IMG/VR virus record: IMGVR_UViG_3300042545_001134 | Location: 56,600 to 120,599 of that record | Length of the DNA stretch: 64,000 nt | Reading direction: 5' to 3' (one strand) | Source of the DNA: a virus | Shown here: positions 1 through 18,188 of the stretch, one piece after another | Layout of the letters: every line of letters begins with the position of its first letter | Position numbering within the stretch: the stretch's first letter is position 1 | Program-made: the position numbers and the translations under genes | The notes under the pieces: model-generated | The model's database searches: none | What the model saw: the letters and a program-made list of their open reading frames with translations, nothing else | What the model was told of the DNA's origin: nothing

Positions 1-26
1 AGAAAAAAACAGACGGGACAGCAGCA

Positions 27-48
27 ACCGAGAATTTGCTTGGCAAAC
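27..48 (+). repeat. Degenerate copy of the GATTTTGTTTGGCA-family element (AATTTGCTTGGCAAA)
   Basis: Sequence gagaatttgcttggcaaac resembles the 15-nt core that recurs in this region. The match is partial. Confidence 0.3.
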
Positions 49-72
49 TTTTAAAATTTAAAAACAGAATAC

Positions 73-561
73 ATGGGACGAGTAAATAAGACAATTGAGG
101 GGGTTTTCACAAACATCGTAGGTACCTCAAGTGAAATCAGTACTTACAATCAATTCATTAATCAAGGTGAGGATTTAAATATTTCTAAGGAACTACAGGA
201 CCTCACTGACACATATGTGAAGTTAGTTAACGAAAGTAAGAACACATTCGAACAGTTGGCATCTTTGGAGGAGATTATCATGCAAATGAGAATCAAGGAG
301 AACTTAGATGATATCAAATTATCATTGGTTCGTGAATACATCTACGCAAGGACTCCATTCTATCGCAAGGATAAGAAGGCCAAGGATGTTAGGGTCATAG
401 TGAACAAAGTGGAGTTTCATCCTGAGGTGGACAGTGAAGGAATCGAGATTTTGTTTGGCAATGAGGAATTCATGGCAAGAGCAAAAGAGAAGTTGGTTCA
501 GTCAATGGACAGTGAGATAAAGGAGAACATCCGATTACTAAAACAAATGTTGAACAATTAA
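73..561 (+). CDS. Hypothetical protein (162 aa)
   Basis: ORF-track frame with no recognisable motif. It contains an internal copy of the intergenic repeat element at 424-461. Confidence 0.5.
   Translation: MGRVNKTIEGVFTNIVGTSSEISTYNQFINQGEDLNISKELQDLTDTYVKLVNESKNTFEQLASLEEIIMQMRIKENLDDIKLSLVREYIYARTPFYRKDKKAKDVRVIVNKVEFHPEVDSEGIEILFGNEEFMARAKEKLVQSMDSEIKENIRLLKQMLNN
424..461 (+). repeat. Copy of the CCTGAGG..GATTTTGTTTGGCAA element, located inside ORF 73-561
   Basis: cctgaggtggacagtgaaggaatcgagattttgtttggcaa aligns with the intergenic copy at 711-751 across about 40 nt. Confidence 0.55.
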
Positions 562-710
562 ATTTGGAGTCATGGACGAAAGAGCACAATTCATTAGAAT
601 CGCAATGGCAAGATTAAACTCTGTGTACATTTTTAAACCACAGAGGTTGGCGGTTGCGGCAAAGATGTACCGAAAGTACTTGGAACGGAAAGAACAGAGA
701 AACGACTAAC

Positions 711-751
711 CGTCCTCAGGATGGTGACAGGTGGTCGATTTTGTTTGGCAG
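711..751 (+). repeat. Intergenic element: GC-rich segment + GATTTTGTTTGGCAG
   Basis: cgtcctcaggatggtgacaggtggtcgattttgtttggcag lies about 73 nt upstream of the ORF 823 start. Confidence 0.6.
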
Positions 752-822
752 AAAAAAATATCATAAAAGATTTGGAATATTCTAGAATTAATATTAACTT
801 CGTACTTTAAAACCAAAATATT

Positions 823-1140
823 ATGTCATATAAACAACAAGTACAGGATTTACAGAATGATATTATAAAAAATATCAAACGATTCGTGGGTGAACTCGGT
901 CAAGATGAATTACATTTTAACGAGATGTTTAGAGTTTGGGTAACGATATCAACTTGGGACGATGATTATGTTCGTGTGTCATACGCGGCAGTCGGGTTAC
1001 GGGGTGAGTTTGTTATCTGCACCAGTGAGGTTGAGGAAGAAGAAATTCAATTAGGGGAACTCGACATATATGAGTTGTCATACATTTTAGATTTACTAAT
1101 ATCAAATCAATTTAAAACCGATAACAATGGACAAGATTAA
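823..1140 (+). CDS. Hypothetical protein (105 aa)
   Basis: ORF-track frame co-oriented with its neighbours. No motif recognised. Confidence 0.5.
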   Translation: MSYKQQVQDLQNDIIKNIKRFVGELGQDELHFNEMFRVWVTISTWDDDYVRVSYAAVGLRGEFVICTSEVEEEEIQLGELDIYELSYILDLLISNQFKTDNNGQD

Positions 1141-1708
1141 ATTAAACAGTAAGGTCGTTGTATCCGACCCTTGTTACACAATTCCAACTTGGTGTCAGGC
1201 CATAGTTGATGGTGTATTACCTGGCAACTATAATGTGTTCTGTAAAAGACACGACTTAGGTGACTGGGGAGTTCGTAACTCAATGTTACTTATAGTACAC
1301 GAGGACCACACAAACGACACTCTTGAGTGGGAATCACATCCCGCAACAATTGGTGTTGACTCTGGTCAGTGTGGATTCTTCTCAAGTGAATCATATCGTA
1401 ATGACTCTCACCCAATTGAAAAGGGTGGGGCTGACTTCTCTTGTTCTCGAGGTGAAGAAGGTGATGAGTTCTATGACAAGATGGGACAGAGAACTTTGAC
1501 CACAGAGTCATATGGTGTGTATGACGAGGGTGCGGTGTGTTCATCAGGTATAGGAGATGGTTCATATATGTTGTTTACGGCAGAGGATGATTTTGGTAAT
1601 GTAATAGGAATGGCGGTGGACTTCTTAATTGAGGGTCCTGAAGACGAGGAGGATGATACAAACAACTTCATCGATTTCGAATTCTATAAAGAAGAACTTG
1701 TAAAATGA
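1127..1708 (+). CDS. Hypothetical Cys-rich protein with acidic C-terminus (193 aa)
   Basis: ORF-track frame. The C-terminus is EGPEDEEDDTNNFIDFEFY. Confidence 0.5.
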   Translation: MDKIKLNSKVVVSDPCYTIPTWCQAIVDGVLPGNYNVFCKRHDLGDWGVRNSMLLIVHEDHTNDTLEWESHPATIGVDSGQCGFFSSESYRNDSHPIEKGGADFSCSRGEEGDEFYDKMGQRTLTTESYGVYDEGAVCSSGIGDGSYMLFTAEDDFGNVIGMAVDFLIEGPEDEEDDTNNFIDFEFYKEELVK

Positions 1709-1769
1709 TAGTAATAGGAATCATCATCGTTATCGTACTTTTGTCGATACTAAAAGAAATAAAGAAGAA

Positions 1770-2036
1770 ATGAAAAAGTTATTCATAGTGATGGGATTGG
1801 CAATCGGTGGTTGCCAATCACCACAAACCTTAATCATGAAGTCGGACTTCACCGCAGTAAATCAGGACTCCACTAAGTTGTGGATTAAGGATACTGAATT
1901 TGGTAAACATCTGTACAACGCATGGAAGACAGGAGTTTATGGGGACGACACGAAAGTATACCTGTTGGACAGCACAGAATTCAACAATTTGGTTGGCACA
2001 AAATCAAAGTCCAAGAATCCGACGGTGAGTCTGTAG
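1770..2036 (+). CDS. Putative lipoprotein (88 aa)
   Basis: N-terminus MKKLFIVMGLAIGGCQSP carries a signal peptide with a lipobox-like LAIGGC. Confidence 0.5.
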   Translation: MKKLFIVMGLAIGGCQSPQTLIMKSDFTAVNQDSTKLWIKDTEFGKHLYNAWKTGVYGDDTKVYLLDSTEFNNLVGTKSKSKNPTVSL

Positions 2037-2058
2037 ACCCCCCGATTTTGTTTGGCAA
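2031..2058 (+). repeat. Intergenic element: short hairpin (GTC-tgta-GAC) + GATTTTGTTTGGCAAG
   Basis: 15-nt core at 2044-2058, 26 nt upstream of the ORF 2084 start. Confidence 0.55.
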
Positions 2059-2083
2059 GAAATATTAATTTAAATAAATCCAT

Positions 2084-2521
2084 ATGGAACCGAATTTAAT
2101 TATCAAACCATCCCAATGGTTAAACCTTGGGTGGTACGCATTAACAGTGGGAGGATTATACATCCATGAGTACTTGGGGTTATTCTTCTTAGTAATCCTG
2201 ATTTATAAAATCTTGGACATCTACTGTTGGAGTTACAGGTTCTACGACGATATCATTGTGGAGAAGAGAGGAATCCTGAATGTGACCCAAGAAGAGGTTC
2301 ATTACTTCAGAATCAAATCCATGATGGTGGAGGAACCATTCTTCCAACGTTTATTGGAACTGTCGACCATCAACATGTCTACATCTGAACATCTCAAACA
2401 GAACTTCGTTCTACATGGTATTTTAAAGGCAGAGGAAACTAAAGAATACCTTGCGAAGATGACCAAGACTAAGAGACGTAGTAATGGAATCCGCGAGATG
2501 GATATCATCAACGGGTACTAA
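2084..2521 (+). CDS. Membrane protein with bacterial PH-like (bPH_2/YdbT-like) domain
   Basis: Two N-terminal hydrophobic helices, then RGILNVTQEEVHYFRIKSMMVEEPFFQRLLELSTINMSTSE. This resembles the bPH_2 family pattern. Confidence 0.45.
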   Translation: MEPNLIIKPSQWLNLGWYALTVGGLYIHEYLGLFFLVILIYKILDIYCWSYRFYDDIIVEKRGILNVTQEEVHYFRIKSMMVEEPFFQRLLELSTINMSTSEHLKQNFVLHGILKAEETKEYLAKMTKTKRRSNGIREMDIINGY

Positions 2522-2530
2522 CCCTGATGG

Positions 2531-2561
2531 ACCTGAAGACAGGTGACGATTTTGTTTGGCA
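2531..2561 (+). repeat. Intergenic element: hairpin ACCTG-aaga-CAGGT + GATTTTGTTTGGCAGG
   Basis: 5-bp perfect stem followed by the conserved U-rich core. This is the first of three tandem copies. Confidence 0.6.
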
Positions 2562-2580
2562 GGGATTACCGTCCGACGGG

Positions 2581-2608
2581 ACCTGAGATGGTCGATTTTG
2601 TTTGGCAA
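2581..2608 (+). repeat. Intergenic element: hairpin GACC-tgagat-GGTC + GATTTTGTTTGGCAAGG
   Basis: Stem-loop then conserved core. This is the second tandem copy. Confidence 0.6.
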
Positions 2609-2620
2609 GGGTTAACCTTC

Positions 2621-2657
2621 CTCAGGACGACCCCGGAATCAGGATTTTGTTTGGCAA
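2621..2657 (+). repeat. Intergenic element: GC-rich segment + GATTTTGTTTGGCAAT
   Basis: Third tandem copy, about 80 nt upstream of ORF 2739. Confidence 0.55.
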
Positions 2658-2738
2658 TAGTTTTTTGAAATATTTTGTAACGGGATTTGGAAATGTCAGA
2701 TTTATTGGTTATATTTTATATATAAAACTGATAATATT

Positions 2739-2924
2739 ATGGCAAACAAAAAAATCACTCAGAGACAACCAGGTAAGGTAACTGCATACGAACCTGTGTC
2801 GCATCACATCTACCACGATGGTTATTCATATCGTGTACGTGTGATTAAGAACGGTACCCGTTACAGTCAGAATTTCTCTAGTAGAAAGAAGGCAATGGAT
2901 TTCCGCAAGTCATTGTTATCTTAA
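2739..2924 (+). CDS. Small basic hypothetical protein (61 aa)
   Basis: ORF-track frame followed by a strong terminator hairpin. Confidence 0.45.
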   Translation: MANKKITQRQPGKVTAYEPVSHHIYHDGYSYRVRVIKNGTRYSQNFSSRKKAMDFRKSLLS

Positions 2925-2973
2925 TAGGATAACTTTACGTGGGTTCTCCATTCCACAATGGGGGACCACTAGA

Positions 2974-2999
2974 CCCGTGGTAACCCCACGGGTTTTTTT
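2974..2999 (+). terminator. Rho-independent terminator
   Basis: Hairpin CCCGTGG-taacc-CCACGGG followed by TTTTTTT. Confidence 0.7.
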
Positions 3000-3016
3000 C
3001 GTTACCACAGAAACCT

Positions 3017-3050
3017 GACTCAGGATGGTATCCTGGATTTTGTTTGGCAA
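3017..3050 (+). repeat. Intergenic element: hairpin CAGGAT-ggt-ATCCTG + GATTTTGTTTGGCAAGG
   Basis: 6-bp stem immediately 5' of the conserved core. Confidence 0.6.
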
Positions 3051-3060
3051 GGACACCCGT

Positions 3061-3098
3061 GTTGTAACATCTAACACTGTCGATTTTGTTTGGCAAGG
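3061..3098 (+). repeat. Intergenic element: hairpin GTGTT...AACAC + GATTTTGTTTGGCAAGG, abutting the ATG at 3099
   Basis: Conserved core at 3082-3096. The gene start (atgtgtatgaca) follows directly. Confidence 0.6.
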
Positions 3099-3866
3099 AT
3101 GTGTATGACAGAACTATTTATATGTATGACACAGAAACTAATAAACCTACTGAATGAGGACGATACTCAAAAGGTAGAACAAATGATACAAGACTTCGAG
3201 GGGTACAACCAAAATGGTATCGAGGTGGTTATGGTGAAGAAAGGTGATAGTGGTGGGGCCATAATGATGATACGGATAACATCCCCAACAATAACAGATG
3301 ATATAGTAAACGAAAAGTTAGAGGTCATCTCAAAGGACTTACAGTCCAAAGGGTATGGTGACCTAATTTTACTTTTCGTAGTTAGTGCCGTATACTATAC
3401 ACCTGAAGGTGTGGATTTAAAAATCGATGTGATGAACTATCAACCACACCAAATCAAAAATAACCTGAGATATGAGTACCCTTCAATTCAGGATATACTA
3501 ATGGGTAATGTGGACTTTACTATACAATCCAATGTAATACCTACGGTTAATCAGGACACCGCAGAGTGGATTCGTATTAAGAAGAAGAGATGTATGACAG
3601 TATATCAGGTACTCCAAAAAGGTTCAGTTAATGGTGTGTCATACACACTAGGTCCCATCCATGGGATGAGTGAGGTGGAACCTACGGTTACTCCGAACTA
3701 TAAAAAGACCTTACAGAGGGACACCATTAATCAACTTCTGTTATCCGTCGAATTAAACGTCCGTATTACAGAGGTCTCCGACCTCAATAGAAAGGACGAA
3801 GTCTCATACGGTATCAAAGAGAAGTTCGAAAAGTTTGGTGTCAACGTGGAAGTCATGGTGAACTAA
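3090..3866 (+). CDS. Hypothetical protein (~255 aa)
   Basis: ORF-track frame. The track start at 3090 is TTG inside the repeat core, so the ATG at 3099 is the more likely start. Confidence 0.5.
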   Translation: MARMCMTELFICMTQKLINLLNEDDTQKVEQMIQDFEGYNQNGIEVVMVKKGDSGGAIMMIRITSPTITDDIVNEKLEVISKDLQSKGYGDLILLFVVSAVYYTPEGVDLKIDVMNYQPHQIKNNLRYEYPSIQDILMGNVDFTIQSNVIPTVNQDTAEWIRIKKKRCMTVYQVLQKGSVNGVSYTLGPIHGMSEVEPTVTPNYKKTLQRDTINQLLLSVELNVRITEVSDLNRKDEVSYGIKEKFEKFGVNVEVMVN

Positions 3867-3894
3867 AACACATATACATATTTACATATATAGA

Positions 3895-3918
3895 CCCTGT
3901 CATACGACGGGGTTTTTT
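3895..3918 (+). terminator. Rho-independent terminator
   Basis: CCCTGTC-atac-GACGGGG (one G-U pair) followed by TTTTTT. Confidence 0.65.
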
Positions 3919-4153
3919 ATTTTAGGACCGATATAACGATATCCATAGTATACATTTCCAGGAAATTTAAATTTATGTCCTTACTTCACACAAGGTACAA
4001 TCCCAGGGTAAATGTCACTGAGTGGTAAAAAGTGGGGGAAAGTGGCATTGTAATACGCCCAGCCCAAAAACCGGTCATTTTGACCTGACAAAAGTAGGGG
4101 ATTTTCGTTACGACAAAAAATGTCTGGATAGTAGGGTTAAAAACGGGGTTTTT

Positions 4154-4498
4154 TTAGGGGTTATTTTTAGAATCATAAACCAATGGTTCCTCACATACCG
4201 GACACTCATCCAGTACAATCATATTGTTCCTGCGGAACGACCAACGTTCCACGGTAGGTAATTCATCTACTGTAAGAACCGTATAACCATCCATACATTT
4301 TACTTCACCATCTATATCATAGTACCTACCTTTATACCTTGTTACTATATGGTTTTTTCTTTGAGAAATATATGGGGTACAATCTTTATACATCTTCTTT
4401 AGTAGGATATGAAACCTATAACATCCTCCTTCGGTATAGATGTATCTTATGTACCCATCTGTATTTCTCAGTTCATCTATGAATGTTAGTATATTCAT
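4154..4498 (-). CDS. Hypothetical Cys-containing protein (114 aa)
   Basis: ORF-track frame with C-terminal CPVCEEP, a possible zinc-ribbon half-site. Confidence 0.4.
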   Translation of the reverse strand: MNILTFIDELRNTDGYIRYIYTEGGCYRFHILLKKMYKDCTPYISQRKNHIVTRYKGRYYDIDGEVKCMDGYTVLTVDELPTVERWSFRRNNMIVLDECPVCEEPLVYDSKNNP

Positions 4499-4519
4499 TT
4501 TATACTTTATGGTATTATA

Positions 4520-4804
4520 CTATATGGTATTATTGGAATCAACTATCCTTCTATACAATTCATGTTGTAATCTATAAGTCTCTAATCTTTGTTGTTCTTC
4601 ATTAATAGTTATGGTATTATTCTCAATTGGATTGTGTCTTCTTCTATATCGTTCATGACGTATTCTATAACTTTCTTCTTCTGCCTCTATACCATACCTT
4701 AACGTATCTCTTATTCTTCTTCTTACAGATTCTTCTAATTCATTGGGATATACTTCTATTATACTATTATCAATATATCCCCTGCCAAGTTTAAAATTGT
4801 TCAT
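4520..4804 (-). CDS. Small hypothetical protein, MNNFKLGRGY family (94 aa)
   Basis: Shares its N-terminus MNNFKLGRGY and ~37 bp of start-region DNA with the next ORF. Confidence 0.45.
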   Translation of the reverse strand: MNNFKLGRGYIDNSIIEVYPNELEESVRRRIRDTLRYGIEAEEESYRIRHERYRRRHNPIENNTITINEEQQRLETYRLQHELYRRIVDSNNTI

Positions 4805-4813
4805 ATATATGGT

Positions 4814-5116
4814 TTAAGACATAAGACTGTCTATTATTTTATCCTGTAATTCAAATATACTATCCATGTTGATATTATCATAATTCAATTCCTCCATAAC
4901 GTATTCTGCCCAAACAATATAGTGGGTAAACGTGAGATTATCCTTTATTGATACAATATCCGTGGCAACCCTATTAAACCCCTCATATTTTATCTCAATA
5001 CGGATTGTGGTTTCATCTATATGATATAGTATTATCGATAACCCATATTGGGATATGATTTTGGTATTATATCCCCTGCCAAGTTTAAAGTTGTTCATAT
5101 ATATGGATTTCTTCAA
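4814..5116 (-). CDS. Small hypothetical protein, MNNFKLGRGY family (100 aa)
   Basis: Tandem paralogue of 4520-4804. The duplicated start region is tatcccctgccaagtttaaa(a/g)ttgttcatatatatgg. Confidence 0.45.
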   Translation of the reverse strand: MKKSIYMNNFKLGRGYNTKIISQYGLSIILYHIDETTIRIEIKYEGFNRVATDIVSIKDNLTFTHYIVWAEYVMEELNYDNINMDSIFELQDKIIDSLMS

Positions 5117-5195
5117 TTTATAGGTTTTAACCCCCTCGATTTTATATCTACACCATAAACAACGTAGAGATACTTATATTATAAAAGTAATCACA

Positions 5196-5273
5196 GTTGT
5201 ATATACCTTTCAAATTGTGATTATAAACAACTGCAGAACAAATATCAACCTGTGTAGAACAGTTGTATACACC
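5196..5273 (-). CRISPR. Solo repeat-spacer unit: degenerate 36-nt repeat, 30-nt spacer, 12-nt partial repeat fused to scaffold A
   Basis: 5196-5231 gttgtatatacctttcaaattgtgattataaacaac vs array consensus gttgtatacacctttcaaataagaggtatttacaac. Spacer is 5232-5261. 5262-5273 gttgtatacacc is the repeat 5' end. Confidence 0.7.
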
Positions 5274-5390
5274 AATAAAAAGTATTTAGTGAGTGGGTTA
5301 TTACCCCGAGATTATCTCCTCCTGTTTATTCAGGGAATCACTATGGGTTGTACAACCAACCCCATCACTTGTGGTGATGAAAATATCTTG
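5274..5390 (-). ncRNA. Conserved omega-RNA/tracrRNA-like scaffold, copy A, overlapping the 3' end of the nuclease CDS
   Basis: About 85% identical to 7151-7273 in its conserved blocks. Contains hairpins CCTG-tttatt-CAGG and GGGTTG-tacaac-CAACCC, the latter with a compensatory change in copy B. The strand is inferred. Confidence 0.65.
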
Positions 5391-6728
5391 TTTTTTCTGT
5401 AGACCTTTTAATAGTCTACCTTTCTTACTCTTACCTTTTACTTCGTTACCTTCAGCGTAAGTTATATTATATGCCCCAACAATATCGGCATCCTTTAGTT
5501 TACCGTAATCGTCACACTCAATGTTAATACAGGTGAATTTGGTTTTATCCTTATCCTTTCTATTCTCCTTATCCACATTCTTACAAGTTGGACATGTAAT
5601 AGATGTATCTTTTGGATTCACCCACAGGATTTGAATCCCCACCATCTTTGCTTTATATTCAATATCCGTTTGAAGTTGATAATATGCCCACGATTTTAAA
5701 AACAAATCTTTAGTGTTTGTGGTTATACCAGTTAAGTCCTCCATCTTAATAATACCCACATTGTATTGTTGGGCAATATCAATAACATCCCTACTGATAT
5801 CGTGATTCATTAACACGGACCAATTGTGTTCCTTTTCCTTTAATCTTTCCATTCCCAACATCTTTCTTGTTCTTCCATGTCCACCCTTGGCAAACTTCAT
5901 GGATTGTTGAAGTGCTCTTCGTATCTTATAGAACTTCATTCTCTCAGTTTGAATCTTTTCACCGATTGAAATCTGTGATGGTTGATGTTTCTCCCCGTCA
6001 ATGTATATTGATACTGGTCTGTTTATACCCAAATCAATTCCCATTACCTTATCAGGAATCATATCCTTTGATTTTGTATCAGGTACTGTACATGTTAATA
6101 ATAAAATAAAATCTTCATCCTTAATTTGAATAGAACTGGTGTTCATTTTGTATTCACCATTCAATATTCTATTGACAATTTTTTCATTACCACTTCTATC
6201 CCTTCCGTAATGTAATTTGAATTTAATTCCTTTGTGAATACTTCTCTCTGATGACGATAATGGTAAGTTAAAAACATAATCCTCCCCTTCTTTACTCACC
6301 ACAGGTTCTTTATTTACCGTACCTTTAAATGGTATTGTTAATGATGTTTTTCTAAATGATGGTATTGACATCTTTCCTTGTAAAATATCATAAAAACTCT
6401 CATCAATAGTTTTATATATCTTTTGACAAAACGACGATTTTATGTTCGATGATATGATGGTATTTTTCTTCATTAAGTTATAACCCATATTCTCCACCAT
6501 CGCCCCGTATTTTTCCTTGAAAATCTCTTTTGATTTAACTTTAGTAATATTAGTTGAATTTTTTATCTCATCCAACTCGTACTGGTTACAAACAGTTAAC
6601 CTAATAACTTCGTTTCCAATTTGAACCAAGTCAGATGCAATTCTTTTTACGTAATTGTACGATGCAGTTCTGTCCTTGCTGGTTTCACCAACCGCAATCA
6701 ATTTGATTTTTCTTGTGATTATTGACAT
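5301..6728 (-). CDS. TnpB/Cas12-like RNA-guided RuvC endonuclease (475 aa)
   Basis: RuvC-I GIDLGINRP, RuvC-II IIKMEDLTG, YKAKMVGIQILWVNPKDTSITCPTC..CINIEC zinc finger, RuvC-III DADIVGAYNI. This is the canonical TnpB/type V order. Confidence 0.85.
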   Translation of the reverse strand: MSIITRKIKLIAVGETSKDRTASYNYVKRIASDLVQIGNEVIRLTVCNQYELDEIKNSTNITKVKSKEIFKEKYGAMVENMGYNLMKKNTIISSNIKSSFCQKIYKTIDESFYDILQGKMSIPSFRKTSLTIPFKGTVNKEPVVSKEGEDYVFNLPLSSSERSIHKGIKFKLHYGRDRSGNEKIVNRILNGEYKMNTSSIQIKDEDFILLLTCTVPDTKSKDMIPDKVMGIDLGINRPVSIYIDGEKHQPSQISIGEKIQTERMKFYKIRRALQQSMKFAKGGHGRTRKMLGMERLKEKEHNWSVLMNHDISRDVIDIAQQYNVGIIKMEDLTGITTNTKDLFLKSWAYYQLQTDIEYKAKMVGIQILWVNPKDTSITCPTCKNVDKENRKDKDKTKFTCINIECDDYGKLKDADIVGAYNITYAEGNEVKGKSKKGRLLKGLQKKQDIFITTSDGVGCTTHSDSLNKQEEIISG

Positions 6729-6753
6729 ATCATGTTCTATTTTATGTTCATCG

Positions 6754-7093
6754 TTATATTAAAAACTTCAAGTAAGAGGTATTTACAACATAAATCCCAT
6801 TAGTTCGTATGGGTTCGTAGTTGTATACACCTTTCAAATAAGAGGTATTTACAACGTACTTGATGACCTGCAACAGGTCCATCAGTTGTATACACCTTTC
6901 AAATAAGAGAAACCCAAAGTACATGTTGTATACACCTTTCAAATAAGAGGTATTTACAACGTTTTCTCTTTCCCATGAGGTGCATCACCTGTTGTATACA
7001 CCTTTCAAATAAGAGGCATTTACAACTATTAACGGATGTACCAAAAATTAACATATAGTTGTATACACCTTTCAAATAAGAGGCATTTACAAC
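6754..7093 (-). CRISPR. CRISPR-like array of 36-bp repeats and 29-31-bp spacers
   Basis: Repeat GTTGTATACACCTTTCAAATAAGAGG(T/C)ATTTACAAC at 6820, 6925, 6991, 7058. Truncated copy at 6885-6910 and degenerate copy at 6754-6789. Spacers are unique. Array lies 25 nt upstream of the nuclease start codon. Confidence 0.85.
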
Positions 7094-7126
7094 ATGGTTA
7101 ACCCCATCTTATTATGAATCAACATA

Positions 7127-7273
7127 TTGTGAATGATTCCCTTATTAAAAAATAAAAGGTATTTAGTGAGTGAGAAGTTAATCTCCAGAAAAATTCCATC
7201 CTGTTTATTCAGGATTCACTATGGGCTGTACAACCAGCCCCACCAAAGTTTTACCTCTGATGAAAATATATTG
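7127..7273 (-). ncRNA. Conserved omega-RNA/tracrRNA-like scaffold, copy B, with a degenerate repeat at its array-proximal end
   Basis: Blocks AATAAAAGGTATTTAGTGAGTG and CCTGTTTATTCAGG..TCACTATGGGCTGTACAACCAGCCCCA..TGATGAAAATAT shared with copy A. An AT-rich promoter-like region follows at 7274-7340. Confidence 0.65.
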
Positions 7274-7465
7274 AAGTTTCCAATATTTCAAAGAACAATA
7301 CAAAGATACGTGTATTTTTTAGATATCCAAATTTTTTTTTAAAAATATTTTTTTATTCATCATCCTCCAACGAATCACTGTATGTGGGTTTATCCTTTGG
7401 GACATAGTCCTCATCACAATTATCAATATGGTCCTCGTCGTTCATAATAGATTTATTTTAAATAA

Positions 7466-7761
7466 CACCCTGATTTATCCAACTTACAGGTGTCGTGGCT
7501 GTCCCCGTTACCGGGTTAGAAATAGACTTTTGGATAGATAGTCAATCTAAATAGAGCCTTTCCCTATCAGAAGTTCCATATGGTTATCACACCACTTCTC
7601 ATCGTATTGGACATACTATCCGGTGATTAACCGAATCGCGTAGTCAGGACAGGAATCGAACCTATAACCAGTTTTCTAAGCCCTACGTGCAGGATTTTCA
7701 CTGCCTCGTACTGGTGTCTAATCGAGCATACACAGCGTTTAACCAATTCCGCCACCTGACT
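7466..7761. repeat. Segmental duplication, copy 1 (tRNA-like gene plus ~170 nt flank)
   Basis: 7580-7761 is near-identical to 9325-9506. 7466-7580 is about 70% similar to 9205-9325. Confidence 0.7.
7641..7761 (-). tRNA. tRNA-like element, atypically long (121 nt)
   Basis: Minus strand reads AGTCAGG..GGCG-GAATTGGTTAAA-CGCT (D-arm with GG)..ATAGG-TTCGATT-CCTGT (T-arm)..CCTGACT-A. The anticodon arm is not canonical by eye. Confidence 0.45.
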
Positions 7762-7949
7762 ATTAGCGTTCTATTAAAAATGGAAGTTATTGCGCCTATA
7801 CCATTTCGTTGATACCACCAATATGGCGTTCATTTTATTCCATTGTTCAAGTTTTGTGAACATTTTCAAATATAGATTTTTATTCCATCATTGCGCCTAT
7901 TTTTCTTGCTTTGCGCCTATTTTTTCCACCATAAGGCTAAAATTAGAAA

Positions 7950-8189
7950 TTATTTTCCAAATGTTTCGTTGTAGTATTGTTGAGAGCCAATTACATATTC
8001 ATCTGAAATGCCAAATTTGTAAGCATTCATTATCTCCTGCTTGTGCATTTCTTTGGCTTCGTCAACATCCACTAAAAAATTATCTATCATTGTTGTTCTA
8101 ACAATTCCATCTGGTTCAGATTCTATTATTAAAATTCTTCGTTTCAATTCAGATATTAACCATTCTATACTGCTTTTTTGTTTTTCCAT
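7950..8189 (-). CDS. Small hypothetical protein (79 aa), YYNETFGK-tail family
   Basis: C-terminus YYNETFGK shared with 8326-8544. Conserved upstream motif. Confidence 0.45.
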   Translation of the reverse strand: MEKQKSSIEWLISELKRRILIIESEPDGIVRTTMIDNFLVDVDEAKEMHKQEIMNAYKFGISDEYVIGSQQYYNETFGK

Positions 8190-10717: not shown

Positions 10718-10987
10718 TTATTTTCCATCAAGATGAATGTCGGTTGCGTAATTCTTTTCCTTATTGAATAAAGGTTCTTGGTCTACCAACTCGTCATGTA
10801 GTGTCCAGTCATCATATGTTTTTTCACCATCGTTGAAACTCATATTATCTGAATTCTCTTTTAGGTATTCCAGCACCTGTTCTTCTTCCATACCCTGAAG
10901 TTCAGGATAGTTATCCGTGTCAATCTCAATTGATTTCTTTAGAATCCATGTGTGAAACCCTTCGCTTAATTGAATTTTTAGTTTCAT
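10718..10987 (-). CDS. Hypothetical acidic protein (89 aa)
   Basis: ORF-track frame. Confidence 0.4.
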   Translation of the reverse strand: MKLKIQLSEGFHTWILKKSIEIDTDNYPELQGMEEEQVLEYLKENSDNMSFNDGEKTYDDWTLHDELVDQEPLFNKEKNYATDIHLDGK

Positions 10988-10990
10988 AGT

Positions 10991-11254
10991 TTAAAAATTG
11001 TCCGTTGAATTCATTTTAATGTTCTCATCATATTTGGTTTTACCATAATGTTGAGCGTTAATTGTTTCACCGGTTGTTGTGAAGTAATGATGTTTACCCC
11101 CATCAAAGAATCGGTACATCTTTATACCATCCTTCTCGAATAGAAACTCAACTTGGAATCCATTACCCTCTGTTGTTGATGATTGTGGGTCCTTGTAACA
11201 TCCTGTTAATAGAACACCCGCCAATAATAATCCTAATATTTTTTTCATTACCAA
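10991..11254 (-). CDS. Putative lipoprotein (87 aa)
   Basis: MVMKKILGLLLAGVLLTGCYKD is a signal peptide with a lipobox. Confidence 0.5.
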   Translation of the reverse strand: MVMKKILGLLLAGVLLTGCYKDPQSSTTEGNGFQVEFLFEKDGIKMYRFFDGGKHHYFTTTGETINAQHYGKTKYDENIKMNSTDNF

Positions 11255-11481
11255 TTATCTAAGTCTGTTAAATCTAATTCTGTTTTTGTGTTATGACTGT
11301 ACACAACAATTTCACTACCAATACCCGTAGGGGTTACTTTCCATGTGAGTAGTCCGCACTCACCATAGATTGCCTTGATATGTGATTTCCACTCATTAAA
11401 TTTATTTTGTTGCTCGTCGCTTAACTCAACAGTTATAGTGTTGTTTTTATTTTTCATAATACTTCGGTTAATACTCTCCAC
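11248..11481 (-). CDS. Hypothetical protein (77 aa)
   Basis: ORF-track frame. Confidence 0.4.
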   Translation of the reverse strand: MESINRSIMKNKNNTITVELSDEQQNKFNEWKSHIKAIYGECGLLTWKVTPTGIGSEIVVYSHNTKTELDLTDLDNW

Positions 11482-13604: not shown

Positions 13605-13904
13605 CTACTTAGGTATTCTATCCAACACTCTTTCCACCATATCTTCTCTTATCCGATAGTTGTTTTCATTGTCGAATGACTGTTGCGATATGTACTCACC
13701 GGCACGATTCTTAAACCTCGCGTAGATACCATTACTTTGGTGGGTAAAACCATTCGTCTCCAAATAATCTTTAACATAATCCTTACCACTAAATCCTTGT
13801 TGTTTAACGGTTACGAAAAAAAGTCTATCCGCAAAACTAATCGATACATCCGAAAACTTTATGTATGAATGTAGGTGTTCGTGTACTTGAATGTTACTAT
13901 CCAT
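13605..13904 (-). CDS. Hypothetical protein (99 aa)
   Basis: ORF-track frame. Confidence 0.45.
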   Translation of the reverse strand: MDSNIQVHEHLHSYIKFSDVSISFADRLFFVTVKQQGFSGKDYVKDYLETNGFTHQSNGIYARFKNRAGEYISQQSFDNENNYRIREDMVERVLDRIPK

Positions 13905-13956
13905 GATGGTTTATTTTTATAAAGGATAAGAAATTTTTCCGAATATTCCAAATTGT

Positions 13957-14694
13957 TTACCAATAACCCACATCTTTTTTAAAGAAATCGTTATTGCCCC
14001 TGTTTCTGTAACTCTTAATGAGTAACTTAATCATACCAAAATACCCCATCTTTTTAAACCTCCTATCATCTTGACCAATATAGTGATTTGAAATTTTAAA
14101 GTTTTCGGGGTAAAACTTCTTACTCAATACATAATCCTCAGAGTGATTTAATGTTTCATCAAACCCACCGAAAAGATTAAACATCTTTCTATCAACCATG
14201 AAATAGGTTCCAACTGCAAAGGGGGTGACCTTACTAACAAAGTAATTCACGATATTAAACATTTTAAACATAAGTGAAGTTCTAAAATCATTACCATATG
14301 ATTCTAATTTACAGGTTAATAGTTGTAATTCCCTCTCTTCCATTTCATTTAATGTATTTTTAATGGTATGGGAGTCATCTAAAATTACATCACCGTCAAT
14401 GAATAAGATATATTTGGTATCAACCAATTTTGCCCCATTGTTTCGACCAACTGATACGGTACCCCCATCAATCAATTCTATCTTTAGTTTCTTCTGATAA
14501 AAGAATGATTGTTTTTTAATTACCTTTCGAGTTCCATCATTACTATGATTGTCCGCAATTATCACTCTTGTTCCCCGTATACCGGTTTGGTTATGTATTG
14601 AATGTAATGTACGCTCAATGTAATTTGCTTCGTTATATGTTGGGATAACGATTGTAAGGTTATTTTTTATTGAAGTGTTTTGTGAATTTGCCAT
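13957..14694 (-). CDS. Glycosyltransferase family 2-like
   Basis: N-terminus TIVIPTYNEANYIERTL and a DGD motif. Confidence 0.55.
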   Translation of the reverse strand: MANSQNTSIKNNLTIVIPTYNEANYIERTLHSIHNQTGIRGTRVIIADNHSNDGTRKVIKKQSFFYQKKLKIELIDGGTVSVGRNNGAKLVDTKYILFIDGDVILDDSHTIKNTLNEMEERELQLLTCKLESYGNDFRTSLMFKMFNIVNYFVSKVTPFAVGTYFMVDRKMFNLFGGFDETLNHSEDYVLSKKFYPENFKISNHYIGQDDRRFKKMGYFGMIKLLIKSYRNRGNNDFFKKDVGYW

Positions 14695-15427
14695 TGTTAT
14701 AAATTATATATGAATTATTTTCTATCCAGTCACCGCAATTGACGTATTCAATATCGTCGATGACTTTTATTATGGGATGATGAATATGCCCACAGACAAC
14801 TTTGGTACAGTTTCTTTTTTTCGCTTGGTAAACTATTTGGTCCTCAAAGGATGTGATGAATTTAACCGCCTCCTTTACTTTATCCTTTAAGAACTTAGAT
14901 AAAGAACGTTTAAACCCCAATCTTTTAAGGTATCTATCAACTACAATTGCCAAATCGTAACCGACGGAACCAAGAACACCCAACCATTTTAATTTTACAA
15001 CACCATCATATAGGTCTCCATGTGTGATGAAAATATCTTTGTAAATGTATTCATTGTGAAATTCGATATTCCCAAATGATAAGTCATCATAATCCCTCAA
15101 GAACTCATCATGATTACCAGTGATGTAAATTACTTTCGTACCATTTTTTGAATAGGATAGAATTTTTCTTATTAAGTTGGTGTAAGATTGTTTCCAGTAA
15201 AATCTCTTTTTTAATAACCAACCATCAATTATGTCACCAACCAAGAAAAGGTATTCCGGTTGATATTTTTTTAAGGTCTCAAGGACCTCTTCAGCATTAC
15301 ATCCCTTTGAACCGAGGTGAACATCTGAAATTAATAACGCTTCAATTTTTTTCATTTTAAAATAGTTTTCCTTGTATGTATTCCATTGCTCTTCTATACC
15401 TACTGATTGGTTTGTGTTCCTCACCAT
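14660..15427 (-). CDS. Metallophosphoesterase (LpxH-like)
   Basis: LISDVHLG..LFLVGDIIDGW..ITGNHDEF motif pattern. Confidence 0.5.
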   Translation of the reverse strand: MVRNTNQSVGIEEQWNTYKENYFKMKKIEALLISDVHLGSKGCNAEEVLETLKKYQPEYLFLVGDIIDGWLLKKRFYWKQSYTNLIRKILSYSKNGTKVIYITGNHDEFLRDYDDLSFGNIEFHNEYIYKDIFITHGDLYDGVVKLKWLGVLGSVGYDLAIVVDRYLKRLGFKRSLSKFLKDKVKEAVKFITSFEDQIVYQAKKRNCTKVVCGHIHHPIIKVIDDIEYVNCGDWIENNSYIIYNNGKFTKHFNKK

Positions 15428-16082
15428 CTAAGAACTTCTCCAATACTCTCTTTACATTAATCTCTTCGGGGTCATAGATGTCTCTAACAATATTATTCCC
15501 GTCAATTATGTGTGGTCGGGCGTAGTATGTTAACTTCTTAAATGAATCACCGTACTTGTGAAACTGTTCTTTGAATAACTCGGACGCCATCTCTTTAATT
15601 TTGATTTTAAATTGATAGTACTCGTCACCAATCTCTTTAGTCCACCCGTATTCCCAACTGGTAAACAAATAAACTTTCTTTTCTGATTTGTGGAAGAACG
15701 TAATGATTTTATCTTCTCCCGGTGAACCGGTGTTCCACTCTATCTTTTCTTCGTTGTTAGATTTATCTTCAATACCAAAGATTCCATTTGGTGTTACGAA
15801 CAAATAATCAGGAGATGACTTACTTCCGAATGGTTCGTGAATAACAAAGTATCCACCGCCCAATTTATCGGAGGTGAATACACTGTGGTCGTATTTGAAA
15901 TAGAAGTTTTTTAATTCGTCTTTATTCTTCTTATCTTCAATGTAGAATTGACCGTCTTTCAACCATGGTAATTCTAAGAACTTGGTCATCGTAAATGATT
16001 CTCTCTCTTTACTGTTCCAATCGTTCTCAATCTCGTTAACTATACCTGATAGTATACCTTTCAATTCTTCACTTTTTTTCAT
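15357..16082 (-). CDS. Hypothetical protein (241 aa)
   Basis: ORF-track frame. Confidence 0.45.
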   Translation of the reverse strand: MKKSEELKGILSGIVNEIENDWNSKERESFTMTKFLELPWLKDGQFYIEDKKNKDELKNFYFKYDHSVFTSDKLGGGYFVIHEPFGSKSSPDYLFVTPNGIFGIEDKSNNEEKIEWNTGSPGEDKIITFFHKSEKKVYLFTSWEYGWTKEIGDEYYQFKIKIKEMASELFKEQFHKYGDSFKKLTYYARPHIIDGNNIVRDIYDPEEINVKRVLEKFLDGEEHKPISRYRRAMEYIQGKLF

Positions 16083-16291
16083 TAAGATTCTCTTTCTTTT
16101 CTATCTATGTATCTATGTACAATAATTAACAATATCATTACGATTATACTTTGCTGTGCTGGTATTGGTAAAAACATCACTAACGCCATGCAGATACCAT
16201 AAAGAAAATCGTTCCAATCCTTCTTGATGAGTGACCCTAAAATATAGAGACCCCATATAATTCCAATCACTATGTTGAAGACTACTAACAT
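16082..16291 (-). CDS. Small membrane protein (69 aa)
   Basis: Two hydrophobic helices. Confidence 0.4.
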   Translation of the reverse strand: MLVVFNIVIGIIWGLYILGSLIKKDWNDFLYGICMALVMFLPIPAQQSIIVMILLIIVHRYIDRKERES

Positions 16292-16385
16292 TGTTCCAAA
16301 TATAAAAGATTATTTTGAATATTCCAAATAATACCCTGATTTTTTTCAAAATCGGTATATATATGGATTATAAAAACTTATAACA

Positions 16386-16790
16386 TTGGACAAAATAGAA
16401 GTATTTGAACCCTATCATCAACACCTATTATTAAAGTGTTGGATGACTAATCCTCCTAAGAAGGAAGAACAACTAAATAAATGGTTTATACACCTCGTAG
16501 ATTCGGTTGGAATGAGGGTAGTTGCTGGGCCAACCAGTGTCTATGTATCCGACCCAGGTAATGAGGGGTTAACGGGAACCGTAACATTAGCCACATCACA
16601 CGGGTCAATACACATTTGGGACCATTATGAGTTACCAATGGCACAGTTTGACATCTACAGTTGTAAATGTTTTAACTTGGGTACCGTATTAAAGTGTTTT
16701 GAACCTTTCGGTATGGTAAAGGCAGAATGGGTTATGATTGACAGGAATGGTAGTCCTGTAATCACCGAATCGGGAGTGTGGGAAGGTTAA
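16386..16790 (+). CDS. speH: S-adenosylmethionine decarboxylase proenzyme (SpeH/SpeD class 1b-like)
   Basis: TLATSHGSIHIWDH and DIYSCK match the AdoMetDC pyruvoyl cleavage region (ESH..SIHTWPE) and the DIFTCG motif. Confidence 0.55.
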   Translation: MDKIEVFEPYHQHLLLKCWMTNPPKKEEQLNKWFIHLVDSVGMRVVAGPTSVYVSDPGNEGLTGTVTLATSHGSIHIWDHYELPMAQFDIYSCKCFNLGTVLKCFEPFGMVKAEWVMIDRNGSPVITESGVWEG

Positions 16791-16877
16791 TTTATTTATA
16801 TTTTCCGAATAAATCTATGTAATATTGGTGGTGTTCTCAATATAGGGGCGGTGATATTTATATATAAATAAAAAATT

Positions 16878-17438
16878 ATGGGTGGAGATATACGTAAAAT
16901 GATTGATAAAGTAAAAAACTTTAAACATTTTGTGAATGAAAGATTGGAATTAGGTAGTCAAGAAAGAATTCATCTAAGTAAAACACCAATTGATAAAATT
17001 GAAAACGGAGTTAAAAATCAAGATGTTCACGGAAAACCGGGAGGTTTATGGTATGGATTCGGTGATAATTGGATTAATTTTAAAAAATATGGTGTTACTT
17101 GGGATACCAAGGAAAACGTACCATTAAAGGGTGTGATGAATAGTGAGGTTTATATTTATAAATTATATTTAGATATGAGTGAAATTATGATTCTGAATAC
17201 AGAAGATTTATTTAAAGAGTTTACAGAAAAATATAGTACACACCAAAATTATCCACACAATATTAATTGGGATTTAGTTTCAAAAAAATATAAAGGTATC
17301 GAGTTTCCAAATTATGAAGAGATTGGTGTTAGAAATTTACATCAAGAATCAAAAGAATATTATTGGGCATATACCATTGATGCAAATTCTGGTTGCATTT
17401 GGGATGTATCAGCAATAAAAAAATTTAGATTATTATAA
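16878..17438 (+). CDS. Hypothetical protein (186 aa)
   Basis: ORF-track frame. Confidence 0.45.
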   Translation: MGGDIRKMIDKVKNFKHFVNERLELGSQERIHLSKTPIDKIENGVKNQDVHGKPGGLWYGFGDNWINFKKYGVTWDTKENVPLKGVMNSEVYIYKLYLDMSEIMILNTEDLFKEFTEKYSTHQNYPHNINWDLVSKKYKGIEFPNYEEIGVRNLHQESKEYYWAYTIDANSGCIWDVSAIKKFRLL

Positions 17439-18177: not shown

Positions 18178-18188
18178 AGTATGTAGAT

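What the first reader, a model, noticed from the sequence alone, without database searches (positions are those of the whole stretch)
27..3098. Family of at least nine co-oriented hairpin + GATTTTGTTTGGCA(A/G)GG elements punctuating the first 3 kb, one embedded in an ORF
The 14-17-nt core GATTTTGTTTGGCA(A/G)GG recurs at 447, 737, 2044, 2548, 2594, 2643, 3036 and 3082, with a degenerate copy at 31. Most copies are preceded by a short GC-rich hairpin (ACCTG-aaga-CAGGT, GACC-tgagat-GGTC, CAGGAT-ggt-ATCCTG, GTGTT..AACAC). They occur singly, in pairs and in a triplet in + strand intergenic gaps 26-80 nt upstream of start codons, once directly abutting an ATG, and never elsewhere in the 64 kb. A hairpin followed by a U-rich tract resembles an intrinsic terminator, but the invariant GGCAAGG tail is longer than a terminator needs. 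Candidate functions are combined terminator/promoter units of an early-gene cluster, sites for a phage-encoded RNA-binding or processing factor, or an anti-termination or retro-regulation signal. One copy with its upstream arm (424-461) lies inside ORF 73-561 in frame (..GIEILFGNEE..). That suggests either recent insertion of the element or that the ORF is not a real gene.
Basis: seen in the sequence. Interest (0 to 1): 0.6.

Follow-up and report, generated by a model that had tools for sequence, protein, structure and literature searches.

The report
Phased upstream element of phage promoters
A 14-base DNA word repeated between the small genes at one end of this window marks a special class of gene-control cassettes in an uncultivated giant freshwater phage. 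It sits at helical-turn distances upstream of host-type promoters, so it is most likely a docking site for an unknown transcription protein rather than an RNA hairpin signal.

Summary
The repeat is real. GATTTTGTTTGGCA occurs 8 times exactly, plus 2 degenerate copies. All are on the + strand within 1-3098, and none occurs in the other 61 kb. The claimed hairpins are weak, and the "GGCAAGG tail" is not invariant.

The window begins inside a ~24 kb block of small + strand genes of a ~230 kb phage family found in freshwater metagenomes. Its promoters are of the Bacteroidota type. The block holds about 55 copies, and the 14-mer is conserved across lineages whose flanks have diverged.

The typical module is: stop codon, ordinary intrinsic terminator, GC-rich spacer, 14-mer, A-tract, sigmaA promoter (TTTG-N19-21-TAnnTTTG), ATG. 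The distance from the 14-mer to the promoter takes only the values 6-8, 16-20, 27-30 or 39-41 nt, a period of about 10.5. Orthologous promoters jump between these classes. The distance to the upstream terminator is not quantised. Promoters outside the block lack the element.

Best reading (about 0.45): an oriented protein-binding upstream promoter element inside terminator/promoter cassettes like the PeSLs of T4-type phages. These cassettes also serve as recombination joints.

Rivals: an autonomous promoter for a phage polymerase or sigma factor, or a weak terminator or roadblock.

ORF 73-561 is a real gene, and its embedded copy is old, not a recent insertion.

The parts
32..45 (+). Degenerate 14-mer copy (GAATTTGCTTGGCA), 27 nt upstream of the ATG at 73. 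No sigmaA promoter lies between them.
   Evidence: The orthologous position is occupied in all lineages, 27-37 nt before the ATG. In L119 a gene caller places it in the 3' end of an upstream ORF.
447..460 (+). Exact 14-mer embedded in frame in ORF 73-561 (codons E-I-L-F-G-N).
   Evidence: Retained in 6 of 7 lineages and lost in L124. The TTG and GGC codons are invariant wherever the copy is retained.
737..802 (+). Regulatory cassette of ORF 823-1140: 14-mer 737-750, A-rich 20-nt gap, -33 TTTG 771-774, degenerate -7 box TAACTTCG 795-802.
   Evidence: The ortholog in L136 has TAAGTTTG with an 18-nt gap. The left breakpoint of a 98-99% identical exchanged patch lies here.
1985..1998 (+). Degenerate copy (CAATTTGGTTGGCA, 3 mismatches) inside ORF 1770-2036.
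2044..2057 (+). Exact 14-mer, 7 nt after the stop of ORF 1770-2036 and 26 nt before the ATG at 2084. There is no terminator and no sigmaA promoter. It is not present at the orthologous spot in L030 or L034.
2531..2717 (+). Tandem array of three hairpin/GC-arm + 14-mer units (14-mers at 2548-2561, 2594-2607 and 2643-2656). It is followed by a 29-nt gap, -33 TTTG 2686-2689 and -7 box TATATTTT 2710-2717, serving ORF 2739-2924.
   Evidence: The orthologous promoter keeps a 27-30 nt gap in all lineages. The array copy number is 3, 2 or 1 in different lineages.
2739..2924 (+). 61-aa conserved protein with a predicted three-strand sheet plus helix (AP2 / integrase arm-binding-like). It is a candidate DNA-binding factor of the block; this is inference only.
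2971..3001 (+). Canonical intrinsic terminator of ORF 2739-2924 (10-bp stem followed by a T-run).
3021..3095 (+). Tandem pair of hairpin + 14-mer units (14-mers at 3036-3049 and 3082-3095) ahead of ORF 3099/3126-3866. There is no sigmaA -33/-7 promoter. A TATTTATA box lies at 3115-3122 and two GTATGACA words at 3103-3110 and 3124-3131.
   Evidence: Orthologs carry 2-4 units.
3892..3921 (.). Terminator at the end of the + strand block, with TGTCATAC in its loop. The 14-mer family stops here.

Best explanation
The 14-mer (consensus GAtTTwGkTTGGCr) is the sequence-specific core of an upstream promoter element.

What is shown:
- It lies in composite regulatory cassettes that separate the roughly 50 small genes of a ~24 kb + strand block in a ~230 kb freshwater phage whose promoters are of the Bacteroidota type.
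- A full cassette reads: stop codon, ordinary intrinsic terminator, 28-66 nt GC-rich spacer (sometimes a small hairpin), 14-mer, A-tract, sigmaA promoter (TTTG-N19-21-TAnnTTTG), then about 20-25 nt to the ATG.
- The element always points the same way as the promoter.
- It sits one, two, three or four helical turns upstream. Its centre is at about -51, -60.5, -71.5 or -82.5.

What is inferred:
- It is a DNA site for a protein that touches RNA polymerase at the promoter. This could be a class-I-type activator, or the alpha C-terminal domain in the manner of an UP element.
- That contact gives this block its own strength or timing programme, probably early expression.
- Copies without a recognisable sigmaA core promoter are read as extra or degenerate binding sites of the same factor. 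These include five of the window's ten copies, the upstream members of tandem arrays, and the inverted pairs. Some may also work with a different core box (TATTTATA).
- Because the cassettes are repeated, they also act as homology patches at which genes are exchanged between phages, as with PeSL elements of T4-type phages.

The binding protein has not been identified.
For: - Clustering is non-random, confined to the block and strand-specific.
- The 14-mer is conserved across lineages with 67-72% protein identity and unalignable flanks.
- In L119, 16 of 19 sense copies lie in the 22% of the block that is non-coding.
- The gap from the 14-mer to the -33 TTTG takes only the values 6-8, 16-20, 27-30 or 39-41 across 44 gene clusters. 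The Rayleigh R is 0.83 at a period of 10.5-11.
- Orthologous promoters switch between gap classes by steps of about 10-11 bp, for example 7/8/17 and 8/28.
- The distance to the upstream terminator is broad (28-66 nt) and aperiodic, with R 0.2.
- Orientation matters. 43 sense copies lie 6-41 nt upstream of a sigmaA promoter, whereas no antisense copy lies closer than 47 nt.
- SigmaA promoters elsewhere in the window lack the element, and there terminators abut promoters directly.
- The -7 box occupies -12 to -5 in Flavobacterium (PMC9723704), which gives the stated centre positions.
- A 98-99% identical patch shared with L136 begins inside the cassette at about 770, against a background of about 70%. 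This matches the PeSL description in PMC4122927.
Against: - In the window itself only two sites (737 and 2643) have a phased sigmaA-like promoter, and both have a degenerate -7 box.
- Copies at 32, 2044 and 3082 lie 26-30 nt from an ATG, which leaves no room for a -33/-7 promoter.
- Of 116 non-redundant copies, 39 have no promoter, partner or next copy nearby.
- Upstream members of tandem arrays are not in helical phase.
- Inverted pairs with gaps of 2-36 nt, and a conserved copy inside a gene, are not predicted by a simple activator model.
- Promoter cassettes are paralogous, so the phasing statistic overstates independence.
- No binding protein is identified, and there are no transcript data.
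Confidence: 0.45

Rival explanations
1. The 14-mer is itself a core promoter, or the main recognition element, for a phage-encoded or virion-delivered RNA polymerase or a phage sigma factor. On this view it often sits in tandem with a host sigmaA promoter, so genes are expressed in two phases.
For: - Several genes have only the 14-mer upstream, at a narrow distance of 26-34 nt from the ATG. These are the window copies at 32, 2044 and 3082, and L030 7728, L034 3268 and 6676.
- ORF 3126 and its orthologs follow a canonical terminator, then 2-4 tandem copies, with no sigmaA promoter.
- A conserved 48-aa antisense gene in L119 and L123 has a 14-mer 12-18 nt before its ATG.
- Tandem strong promoters are common in phage early regions (general knowledge).
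Against: - No RNA polymerase or sigma factor was found among the ORFs scanned in the roughly 75 kb of this phage that was scanned. About 140 kb remains unseen.
- Helical phasing with the sigmaA promoter is not needed for independent tandem promoters.
- No conserved initiation region follows the 14-mer.
- Inverted pairs would be face-to-face promoters 2-36 nt apart.
- The motif-only genes may instead be co-transcribed with upstream genes or use a TATTTATA box.
Confidence: 0.2
2. The GC-rich arm plus the T-rich half of the 14-mer acts as a weak intrinsic terminator, or the 14-mer is the site of a polar protein roadblock. Either would insulate each cassette from read-through, with inverted pairs acting as bidirectional stops.
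For: - The copies at 737, 2044 and 2548 begin 7-27 nt after stop codons where no canonical terminator exists.
- At one orthologous site a strong CCCCC...GGGGG hairpin directly abuts ATTTTTGTTTGG, and no other terminator is present.
- The unit at 3020-3036 passes the terminator scan.
- The helix ends 0-3 nt from the 14-mer in 48 of 74 folds.
Against: - Most hairpins are weak (mean z -0.6).
- 42 of 122 copies already have a canonical terminator 28-66 nt upstream, at an unquantised distance.
- The invariant TGGC is not needed for intrinsic termination.
- A copy inside ORF 73-561 is kept in 6 of 7 lineages.
- The spacing is tied to the downstream promoter, not to the upstream gene.
Confidence: 0.13
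3. The units act mainly as recombination substrates or are remnants of a small mobile element (MITE-like, with the 14-mer as a terminal inverted repeat). On this view they have no regulatory role of their own.
For: - Gene order and array copy number differ between lineages.
- There is a recent cassette exchange with a breakpoint in the cassette.
- Inverted pairs resemble short terminal repeats.
- The copy at 2044 is lineage-specific and exact.
Against: - All 14 positions remain conserved across diverged lineages while the flanks decay.
- Orientation is strict and spacing is helically phased with promoters.
- No target-site duplications were seen.
- The only transposase-like gene, a TnpB-like ORF at 5301-6728, is lineage-specific and lies outside the block.
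- The right breakpoint of the exchanged patch lies inside a gene, as expected for ordinary homologous recombination.
Confidence: 0.1
4. The element works in RNA, as a processing site, a binding site for an RNA-binding protein, or an anti-termination signal.
For: - All copies lie on the coding strand.
- Sense and antisense pairs could form 14-bp RNA stems.
- In the motif-only genes the element could lie in a 5' leader.
Against: - In full cassettes it lies after a terminator and before the sigmaA start site, so it is largely untranscribed.
- Spacing follows the DNA helical repeat.
- The upstream structure is not conserved.
- There is no Rfam match.
Confidence: 0.05

Closest known systems
PeSL / PmSL elements (promoter-early or promoter-middle stem-loops) of T4-type phages (Arbiol et al. 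2010; Comeau et al. 2014, PMC4122927)
   Same: - Composite terminator-like stem-loop plus host-type promoter cassettes.
- They are repeated between small ORFan genes of a hyperplastic region.
- Degraded 'half' copies occur.
- They are associated with indels, reordering and exchange of gene cassettes.
   Different: - The promoter here is the Bacteroidota -33/-7 type.
- An extra module of about 60-80 bp (GC-rich arm, a 14-bp invariant oriented word, and an A-tract) is inserted between terminator and promoter. It is in helical phase with the promoter.
- PeSLs are described only with a generally AT-rich upstream region.
- This phage family is not shown to be T4-like.
- Promoters outside the block look like plain PeSL-type terminator-promoter joints without the 14-mer.
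Class I activator sites and UP elements of bacterial promoters (CRP at -61.5, -71.5, -82.5; alpha-CTD subsites); also T4 MotA boxes
   Same: - The sites are oriented or face-specific and lie upstream of the -35-equivalent element.
- Allowed positions differ by one helical turn.
- The T-rich then A-rich composition resembles a full UP element in the 8-nt gap class.
- Like MotA boxes, the 14-mer marks one temporal class of phage promoters. This comparison rests on general knowledge.
   Different: - The 14 bp carry high information content, including an invariant TGGC. That is more than alpha-CTD minor-groove reading needs.
- No factor is known.
- MotA boxes sit at a fixed -30 and replace the -35 element, whereas here the -33 element is kept.
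- Many copies lack a core promoter.
Phage P1 C1 operators (asymmetric 17-bp sites dispersed over the genome, single or as overlapping inverted pairs) - recalled from general knowledge, not tested
   Same: An asymmetric word is repeated many times at transcription units of one phage. It occurs both singly and as inverted pairs.
   Different: - P1 operators overlap core promoters and mediate repression.
- There is no helical phasing upstream of promoters.
- There is no sequence similarity.
Phage N4 early promoters (hairpin promoters for the virion RNA polymerase)
   Same: A cluster of co-oriented elements, each a small hairpin plus conserved sequence, lies ahead of small genes in one region of a phage genome.
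   Different: - N4 hairpins have a defined 5-7 bp stem and 3-nt loop at a fixed position.
- Here the hairpins are irregular or absent.
- Host-type promoters are present.
- The giant neighbouring gene is tail-fibre-like rather than polymerase-like.

Membership tests
PeSL-type composite terminator/promoter cassettes | A stem-loop or terminator immediately upstream of a host primary-sigma promoter, which is followed by the gene start. | tested here: met
   Stop codon, canonical terminator, then TTTG-N19-21-TAnnTTTG, then ATG occurs in many intergenic regions of the block. Here a GC-rich spacer and the 14-mer lie between the terminator and the promoter. Outside the block the terminator abuts the promoter directly.
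PeSL-type composite terminator/promoter cassettes | Concentrated in hyperplastic regions of small variable ORFs and associated with indels or exchanges. | tested here: met
   Gene order and content differ between lineages. A 98-99% identical patch starts in the cassette. Array copy number varies.
PeSL-type composite terminator/promoter cassettes | Occurs in T4-like myoviruses with sigma70-type -35/-10 promoters. | tested here: not met
   The promoters are of the Bacteroidota -33/-7 type. T4-like core genes were not seen in the roughly 75 kb that was scanned.
Class I activator site / UP element | Located upstream of the core promoter at positions that differ by integral helical turns, on one face of the helix. 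| tested here: met
   Gaps of 6-8, 16-20, 27-30 or 39-41 nt only; R 0.83 at a period of 10.5-11; orthologs switch gap class.
Class I activator site / UP element | Bound by an activator or alpha-CTD, and stimulates transcription. | not testable with these tools
   No binding or expression data are available. The AP2-like ORF 2739-2924 is only a candidate.
Intrinsic (Rho-independent) terminator | A stable GC-rich stem-loop directly followed by a U-tract. | tested here: inconclusive
   Only 1 of 10 window copies passes the scan. Mean fold z is -0.6. A few orthologous sites have a strong hairpin abutting ATTTTTGTTTGG. Most copies already follow a canonical terminator.
N4-type hairpin promoter | A hairpin of fixed geometry at a fixed distance from the start, together with a virion RNA polymerase gene. 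| tested here: not met
   Hairpin position and size vary or the hairpin is absent. The 4057-aa neighbouring gene matches tail-fibre families only.
Sigma-54 promoter | TGGCA(C) at -24 and TTGC at -12, that is GG-N10-GC. | tested here: not met
   TGGCA is present, but no conserved GC or TTGC follows at the required spacing. Positions +14 to +25 are A-rich and unconserved. True examples seen in the unrelated L057 look different.
CRISPR mini-array | Repeats of at least about 21 nt separated by unrelated spacers. | tested here: not met
   The invariant part is 14 nt. The 'spacers' share GC-rich words such as CCGACGG and CCTGAG.
Known RNA families (Rfam 15) | A match at or near the gathering score. 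| tested here: not met
   All matches in 1-8000 are far below gathering scores, and none lies at the repeats.
IS200/IS605-derived palindromic elements (because a TnpB-like gene lies at 5301-6728) | Subterminal hairpins linked to the transposon, which is shared by genomes carrying the repeats. | tested here: not met
   The TnpB-like ORF has no homolog in the syntenic L030 and L034 regions, which nevertheless carry the repeats.

The most novel reading that the evidence does not exclude
The 14-mer could be the recognition site of a so far unknown phage transcription system in Bacteroidota-infecting giant phages. One possibility is a core promoter for a phage or virion RNA polymerase. Another is the docking site of a dedicated activator or appropriator, delivered or made early, that recruits host polymerase with class-I geometry. 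A second block-specific word (YGTATKACA) and a small AP2-like protein could be further parts of the same circuit.
Probability: 0.25. Interest if true: 0.75.

Novelty: new variant of a known kind. Interest (0 to 1): 0.55.

Why it matters
Almost nothing is known about how phages of Bacteroidota time their gene expression, and their giant phages are uncultivated.

This element gives a concrete, testable handle. It is a 14-bp oriented word, phased with the host-type promoter, that separates one class of about 50 small, probably host-takeover, genes from the rest of the genome. It predicts a specific DNA-binding factor that could be isolated by pull-down with the 14-mer as bait.

It also provides natural parts (terminator, enhancer-like element, promoter) for genetic tools in Bacteroidota.

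Finally, it extends the idea of mobile regulatory cassettes that drive gene shuffling from T4-type coliphages to a very different phage group.

Tried and rejected
- **Close relatives among cultivated phages.** None found by megablast or tblastn with ORF 73-561. Other proteins gave only distant hits.
- **crAss-like phi14:2 early promoters.** The paper reports no common motif for early transcripts, so there is no link.
- **Literature search for the sequence itself.** It returned only unrelated primer hits.
- **Tandem-pair pattern in IMG/VR.** It found nothing. The single 14-mer found three related loci among chance hits.
- **Scan of cellular genomes for 14-mer + TTTGG.** My pattern was too loose. 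It therefore says nothing about a host site.
- **The 14-mer as a sigmaA -7 or -33 box.** The essential A of TAnnTTTG is missing and the spacings do not fit (reasoning).
- **Sigma-54, CRISPR mini-array, N4-type hairpin promoter and IS605-type elements.** All rejected; see the membership tests.
- **Search for an RNA polymerase or sigma factor.** None found in ORFs of the window, in L119, or in the giant gene beyond the right end.
- **Co-variation of the 14-mer with the AP2-like protein.** A distant relative (L283) has the protein and many GTATKAC words but no 14-mer. The protein is therefore not tied to the 14-mer.
- **Shared contig ends as a physical genome end.** Three contigs end at the same base at the block start. 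That point lies at a 55-nt direct repeat, so an assembly break is the simpler reading.

Full report
**Observation**

The 14-mer GATTTTGTTTGGCA is present exactly at 447, 737, 2044, 2548, 2594, 2643, 3036 and 3082. A 2-mismatch copy lies at 32. All are on the + strand, and no other site within 2 mismatches exists in the 64 kb. Chance expectation is 1.3, and no shuffle reaches 9. A relaxed pattern adds a degenerate copy at 1985 inside ORF 1770-2036.

Only four copies continue with RGG, and in relatives conservation ends at GGCR.

Hairpins exist at four copies, but they are not a general feature. The 40 nt upstream of 74 copies fold only marginally better than shuffles (mean z -0.6). Only one window unit passes a terminator-like scan, whereas two canonical terminators (2971-2995 and 3892-3915) are obvious. 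The general upstream feature is a GC-rich stretch with recurring CTGAAG, CCTGAG and CGACGG words.

**Context**

- The window is AT-rich (33% GC). Its first 3.9 kb is a + strand gene block of higher GC, followed by - strand genes.
- Proteins identify a large phage with DNA-modification genes, tail-fibre proteins and a lineage-specific TnpB-like gene.
- No cultivated relative was found.
- Exact look-up of ORF 73-561 gave contig L119, which holds the 10 kb upstream of the window. Window position 1 corresponds to L119 position 9929.
- IMG/VR holds orthologous regions from contigs of up to 233-288 kb from freshwater samples.
- In these relatives the 14-mer family fills a + strand block of about 24 kb with roughly 55 copies. 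The block starts at a divergent junction and ends exactly where the + strand genes end.
- The window therefore shows only the last 3.9 kb of this block.
- In L119, 24 copies are sense and 5 are antisense. Of the 19 good sense copies, 16 lie in the 22% of the block that is non-coding.

**Anatomy**

Upstream of the window, and in all relatives, the intergenic regions follow one grammar:
1. stop codon;
2. canonical intrinsic terminator;
3. GC-rich spacer;
4. 14-mer;
5. A-rich tract;
6. TTTG-N19-21-TAnnTTTG;
7. about 20-25 nt, then the ATG.

The last motif pair is the Bacteroidota sigmaA promoter. Its -7 box lies at -12 to -5 (PMC9723704). [quoted passage not shown]

The same promoters occur in front of - strand genes elsewhere in the window. 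There they lack the 14-mer, and terminators abut the promoters directly.

**The decisive feature: helical phasing**

The distance from the 3' end of the 14-mer to the -33 TTTG takes only the values 6-8, 16-20, 27-30 or 39-41 nt. This holds over 65 instances in 44 gene clusters, with a Rayleigh R of 0.83 at a period of 10.5-11.

Orthologous promoters differ between lineages by jumps between these classes. One promoter has gaps of 7, 8 and 17 nt in three lineages, and a gap of 28 nt at what appears to be the same site in a fourth.

By contrast, the distance from the upstream terminator to the 14-mer is broad (28-66 nt) and aperiodic.

Orientation is strict. 43 sense copies lie 6-41 nt upstream of a promoter, and no antisense copy lies closer than 47 nt.

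Taken together, the 14-mer centres at about -51, -60.5, -71.5 or -82.5. This is the geometry of class I activator sites or alpha-CTD contacts. It means a DNA-level element coupled to the downstream promoter.

**What does not fit simply**

- Only 43 of 116 non-redundant copies have a recognisable promoter. Another 15 are followed by a further tandem copy, 19 by an antisense partner, and 39 by nothing recognisable.
- In the window, the copies at 737 and 2643 have phased promoters with degenerate -7 boxes.
- The copies at 32, 2044 and 3082 lie 26-30 nt from an ATG, which leaves no room for a promoter.
- The copy at 447 is inside a gene.
- The gene 3126-3866 and its orthologs always follow a terminator plus 2-4 tandem units. 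They have only a TATTTATA box, which also precedes other ORFs in the window.
- A conserved 48-aa antisense gene in L119 and L123 has a 14-mer 12-18 nt before its ATG.

These facts keep alive the rival view that the 14-mer is an autonomous promoter for a phage enzyme or sigma factor. However, no such gene was found in the roughly 75 kb of this phage that was scanned.

At three window sites the unit follows a stop codon without any other terminator. At one orthologous site a strong hairpin abuts the T-rich half of the 14-mer. A secondary terminator or insulator role is therefore possible.

**The embedded copy**

ORF 73-561 has orthologs at 67-72% identity in seven lineages. The 14-mer sits at the same codons in six of them and is lost in L124. 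The Leu TTG and Gly GGC codons are invariant wherever the copy is kept, while the Phe codon between them changes. Overall, only 14 of 77 invariant-residue columns keep one codon in all lineages. The ORF is real, the copy is ancient, and there is mild evidence for nucleotide-level constraint on it.

**Cassettes as recombination joints**

- Gene order and array copy number vary between lineages.
- The window shares a 98-99% identical patch with L136. It runs from the promoter at about 770 through ORF 823-1140 to about 1200, in a background of about 70% identity.
- The copy at 2044 is exact and lineage-specific.

This matches the behaviour described for PeSL elements of T4-type phages (PMC4122927). 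PeSLs are the closest known kind. The difference is the added, phased, sequence-specific module.

**Candidate partners (leads only)**

A second word, YGTATKACA, is enriched in the block:
- Twelve GTATKAC hits lie in the first 4.1 kb of the window. None lies in the remaining 59.9 kb, where about 18 are expected.
- The word fills the loops of the inverted 14-mer pairs in a conserved arrangement.
- It is not depleted in the 9 kb upstream of the block in L280.

**Verdict**

This is a real, conserved, class-specific cis-element. It is most probably a protein-binding upstream promoter element within mobile terminator/promoter cassettes of a giant Bacteroidota phage. It is a new variant of a known kind, with the binding factor and the temporal class still to be found.

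Noticed in passing
window 978-4056 (12 sites); L119, L140, L283: A second block-specific word, YGTATKACA (a near-palindrome, TGTA-N-TACA). All 12 GTATKAC hits of the window lie in the first 4.1 kb, on both strands and in both coding and non-coding DNA. None lies in the other 59.9 kb, where about 18 are expected. It fills the loops between inverted 14-mer pairs in the form GTATGACA-N10-13-GTATTACA. It is very dense in the distant relative L283 (20 hits in 7.9 kb), which lacks the 14-mer. It is not depleted in the 9 kb upstream of the block in L280.
   Followed up: partly
[not shown]
   Followed up: partly
window 5301-6728 (-): A TnpB / Cas12f-like ORF (OrfB_IS605 plus a TNB domain). It has no homolog in the syntenic regions of L030 and L034, so it is a lineage-specific insertion. 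Its ends and guide RNA were not examined.
   Followed up: no
window ~770-1200 vs L136 ~10830-11260: A patch covering the promoter, ORF 823-1140 and the start of ORF 1127 is 98-99% identical to a phage lineage whose neighbouring genes are only about 70% identical. This indicates recent lateral exchange of one gene cassette.
   Followed up: yes
L119 2343-2500 (-); L123 2690-2854 (-): A conserved 48-aa membrane-type ORF lies on the opposite strand inside the + block. It is bracketed by an inverted pair of 14-mers, one 12-18 nt before its ATG and the complement of another directly after its stop. A TATTTATY box sits exactly 4 nt before the ATG, which is a leaderless geometry.
   Followed up: partly
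window 3115, 16855, 17153, 30676, 31498, 35690, 37309, 37322, 46025: TATTTAT[ACT] boxes. Nine of the 18 occurrences lie 3-22 nt before the ATG of an ORF of at least 45 aa. This may be a second promoter class, reminiscent of the single-box T4 late promoter TATAAATA.
   Followed up: partly
window 10620, 9928, 27895, 16328 (- strand): SigmaA-type promoters in which the -7 box is followed by only 4-5 nt before the ATG. This implies leaderless mRNAs.
   Followed up: no
beyond window end (L271 1-9212; window 63197-64000 is its 3' end): A giant gene of at least 4057 codons runs off the right end of the window. The part available matches tail-fibre families only.
   Followed up: partly
window ~13900-23700 and 46000-57900: A cluster of genes that suggests hypermodified DNA or surface-sugar chemistry. 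It includes a 430-aa thymidylate-synthase-like protein, an aminotransferase, several glycosyltransferases, a 2OG-Fe(II) oxygenase, a DNA methyltransferase and a tRNA nucleotidyltransferase.
   Followed up: no
L280 ~9343 = first base of L275, L278 and L281 contigs: Three independent IMG/VR contigs (118, 202 and 234 kb) end at the same nucleotide at the start of the 14-mer block. That point is next to a ~55-nt direct repeat containing antisense 14-mer-like words. It is probably a repeat-induced assembly break, but a physical genome end is not excluded.
   Followed up: partly
L057 2046, 3804, 5441 (unrelated viral contig): Chance hits of the 14-mer search turned out to be typical sigma-54-type promoters (TTTTGGCA-N6-TTTGC) repeated in another viral contig.
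   Followed up: no
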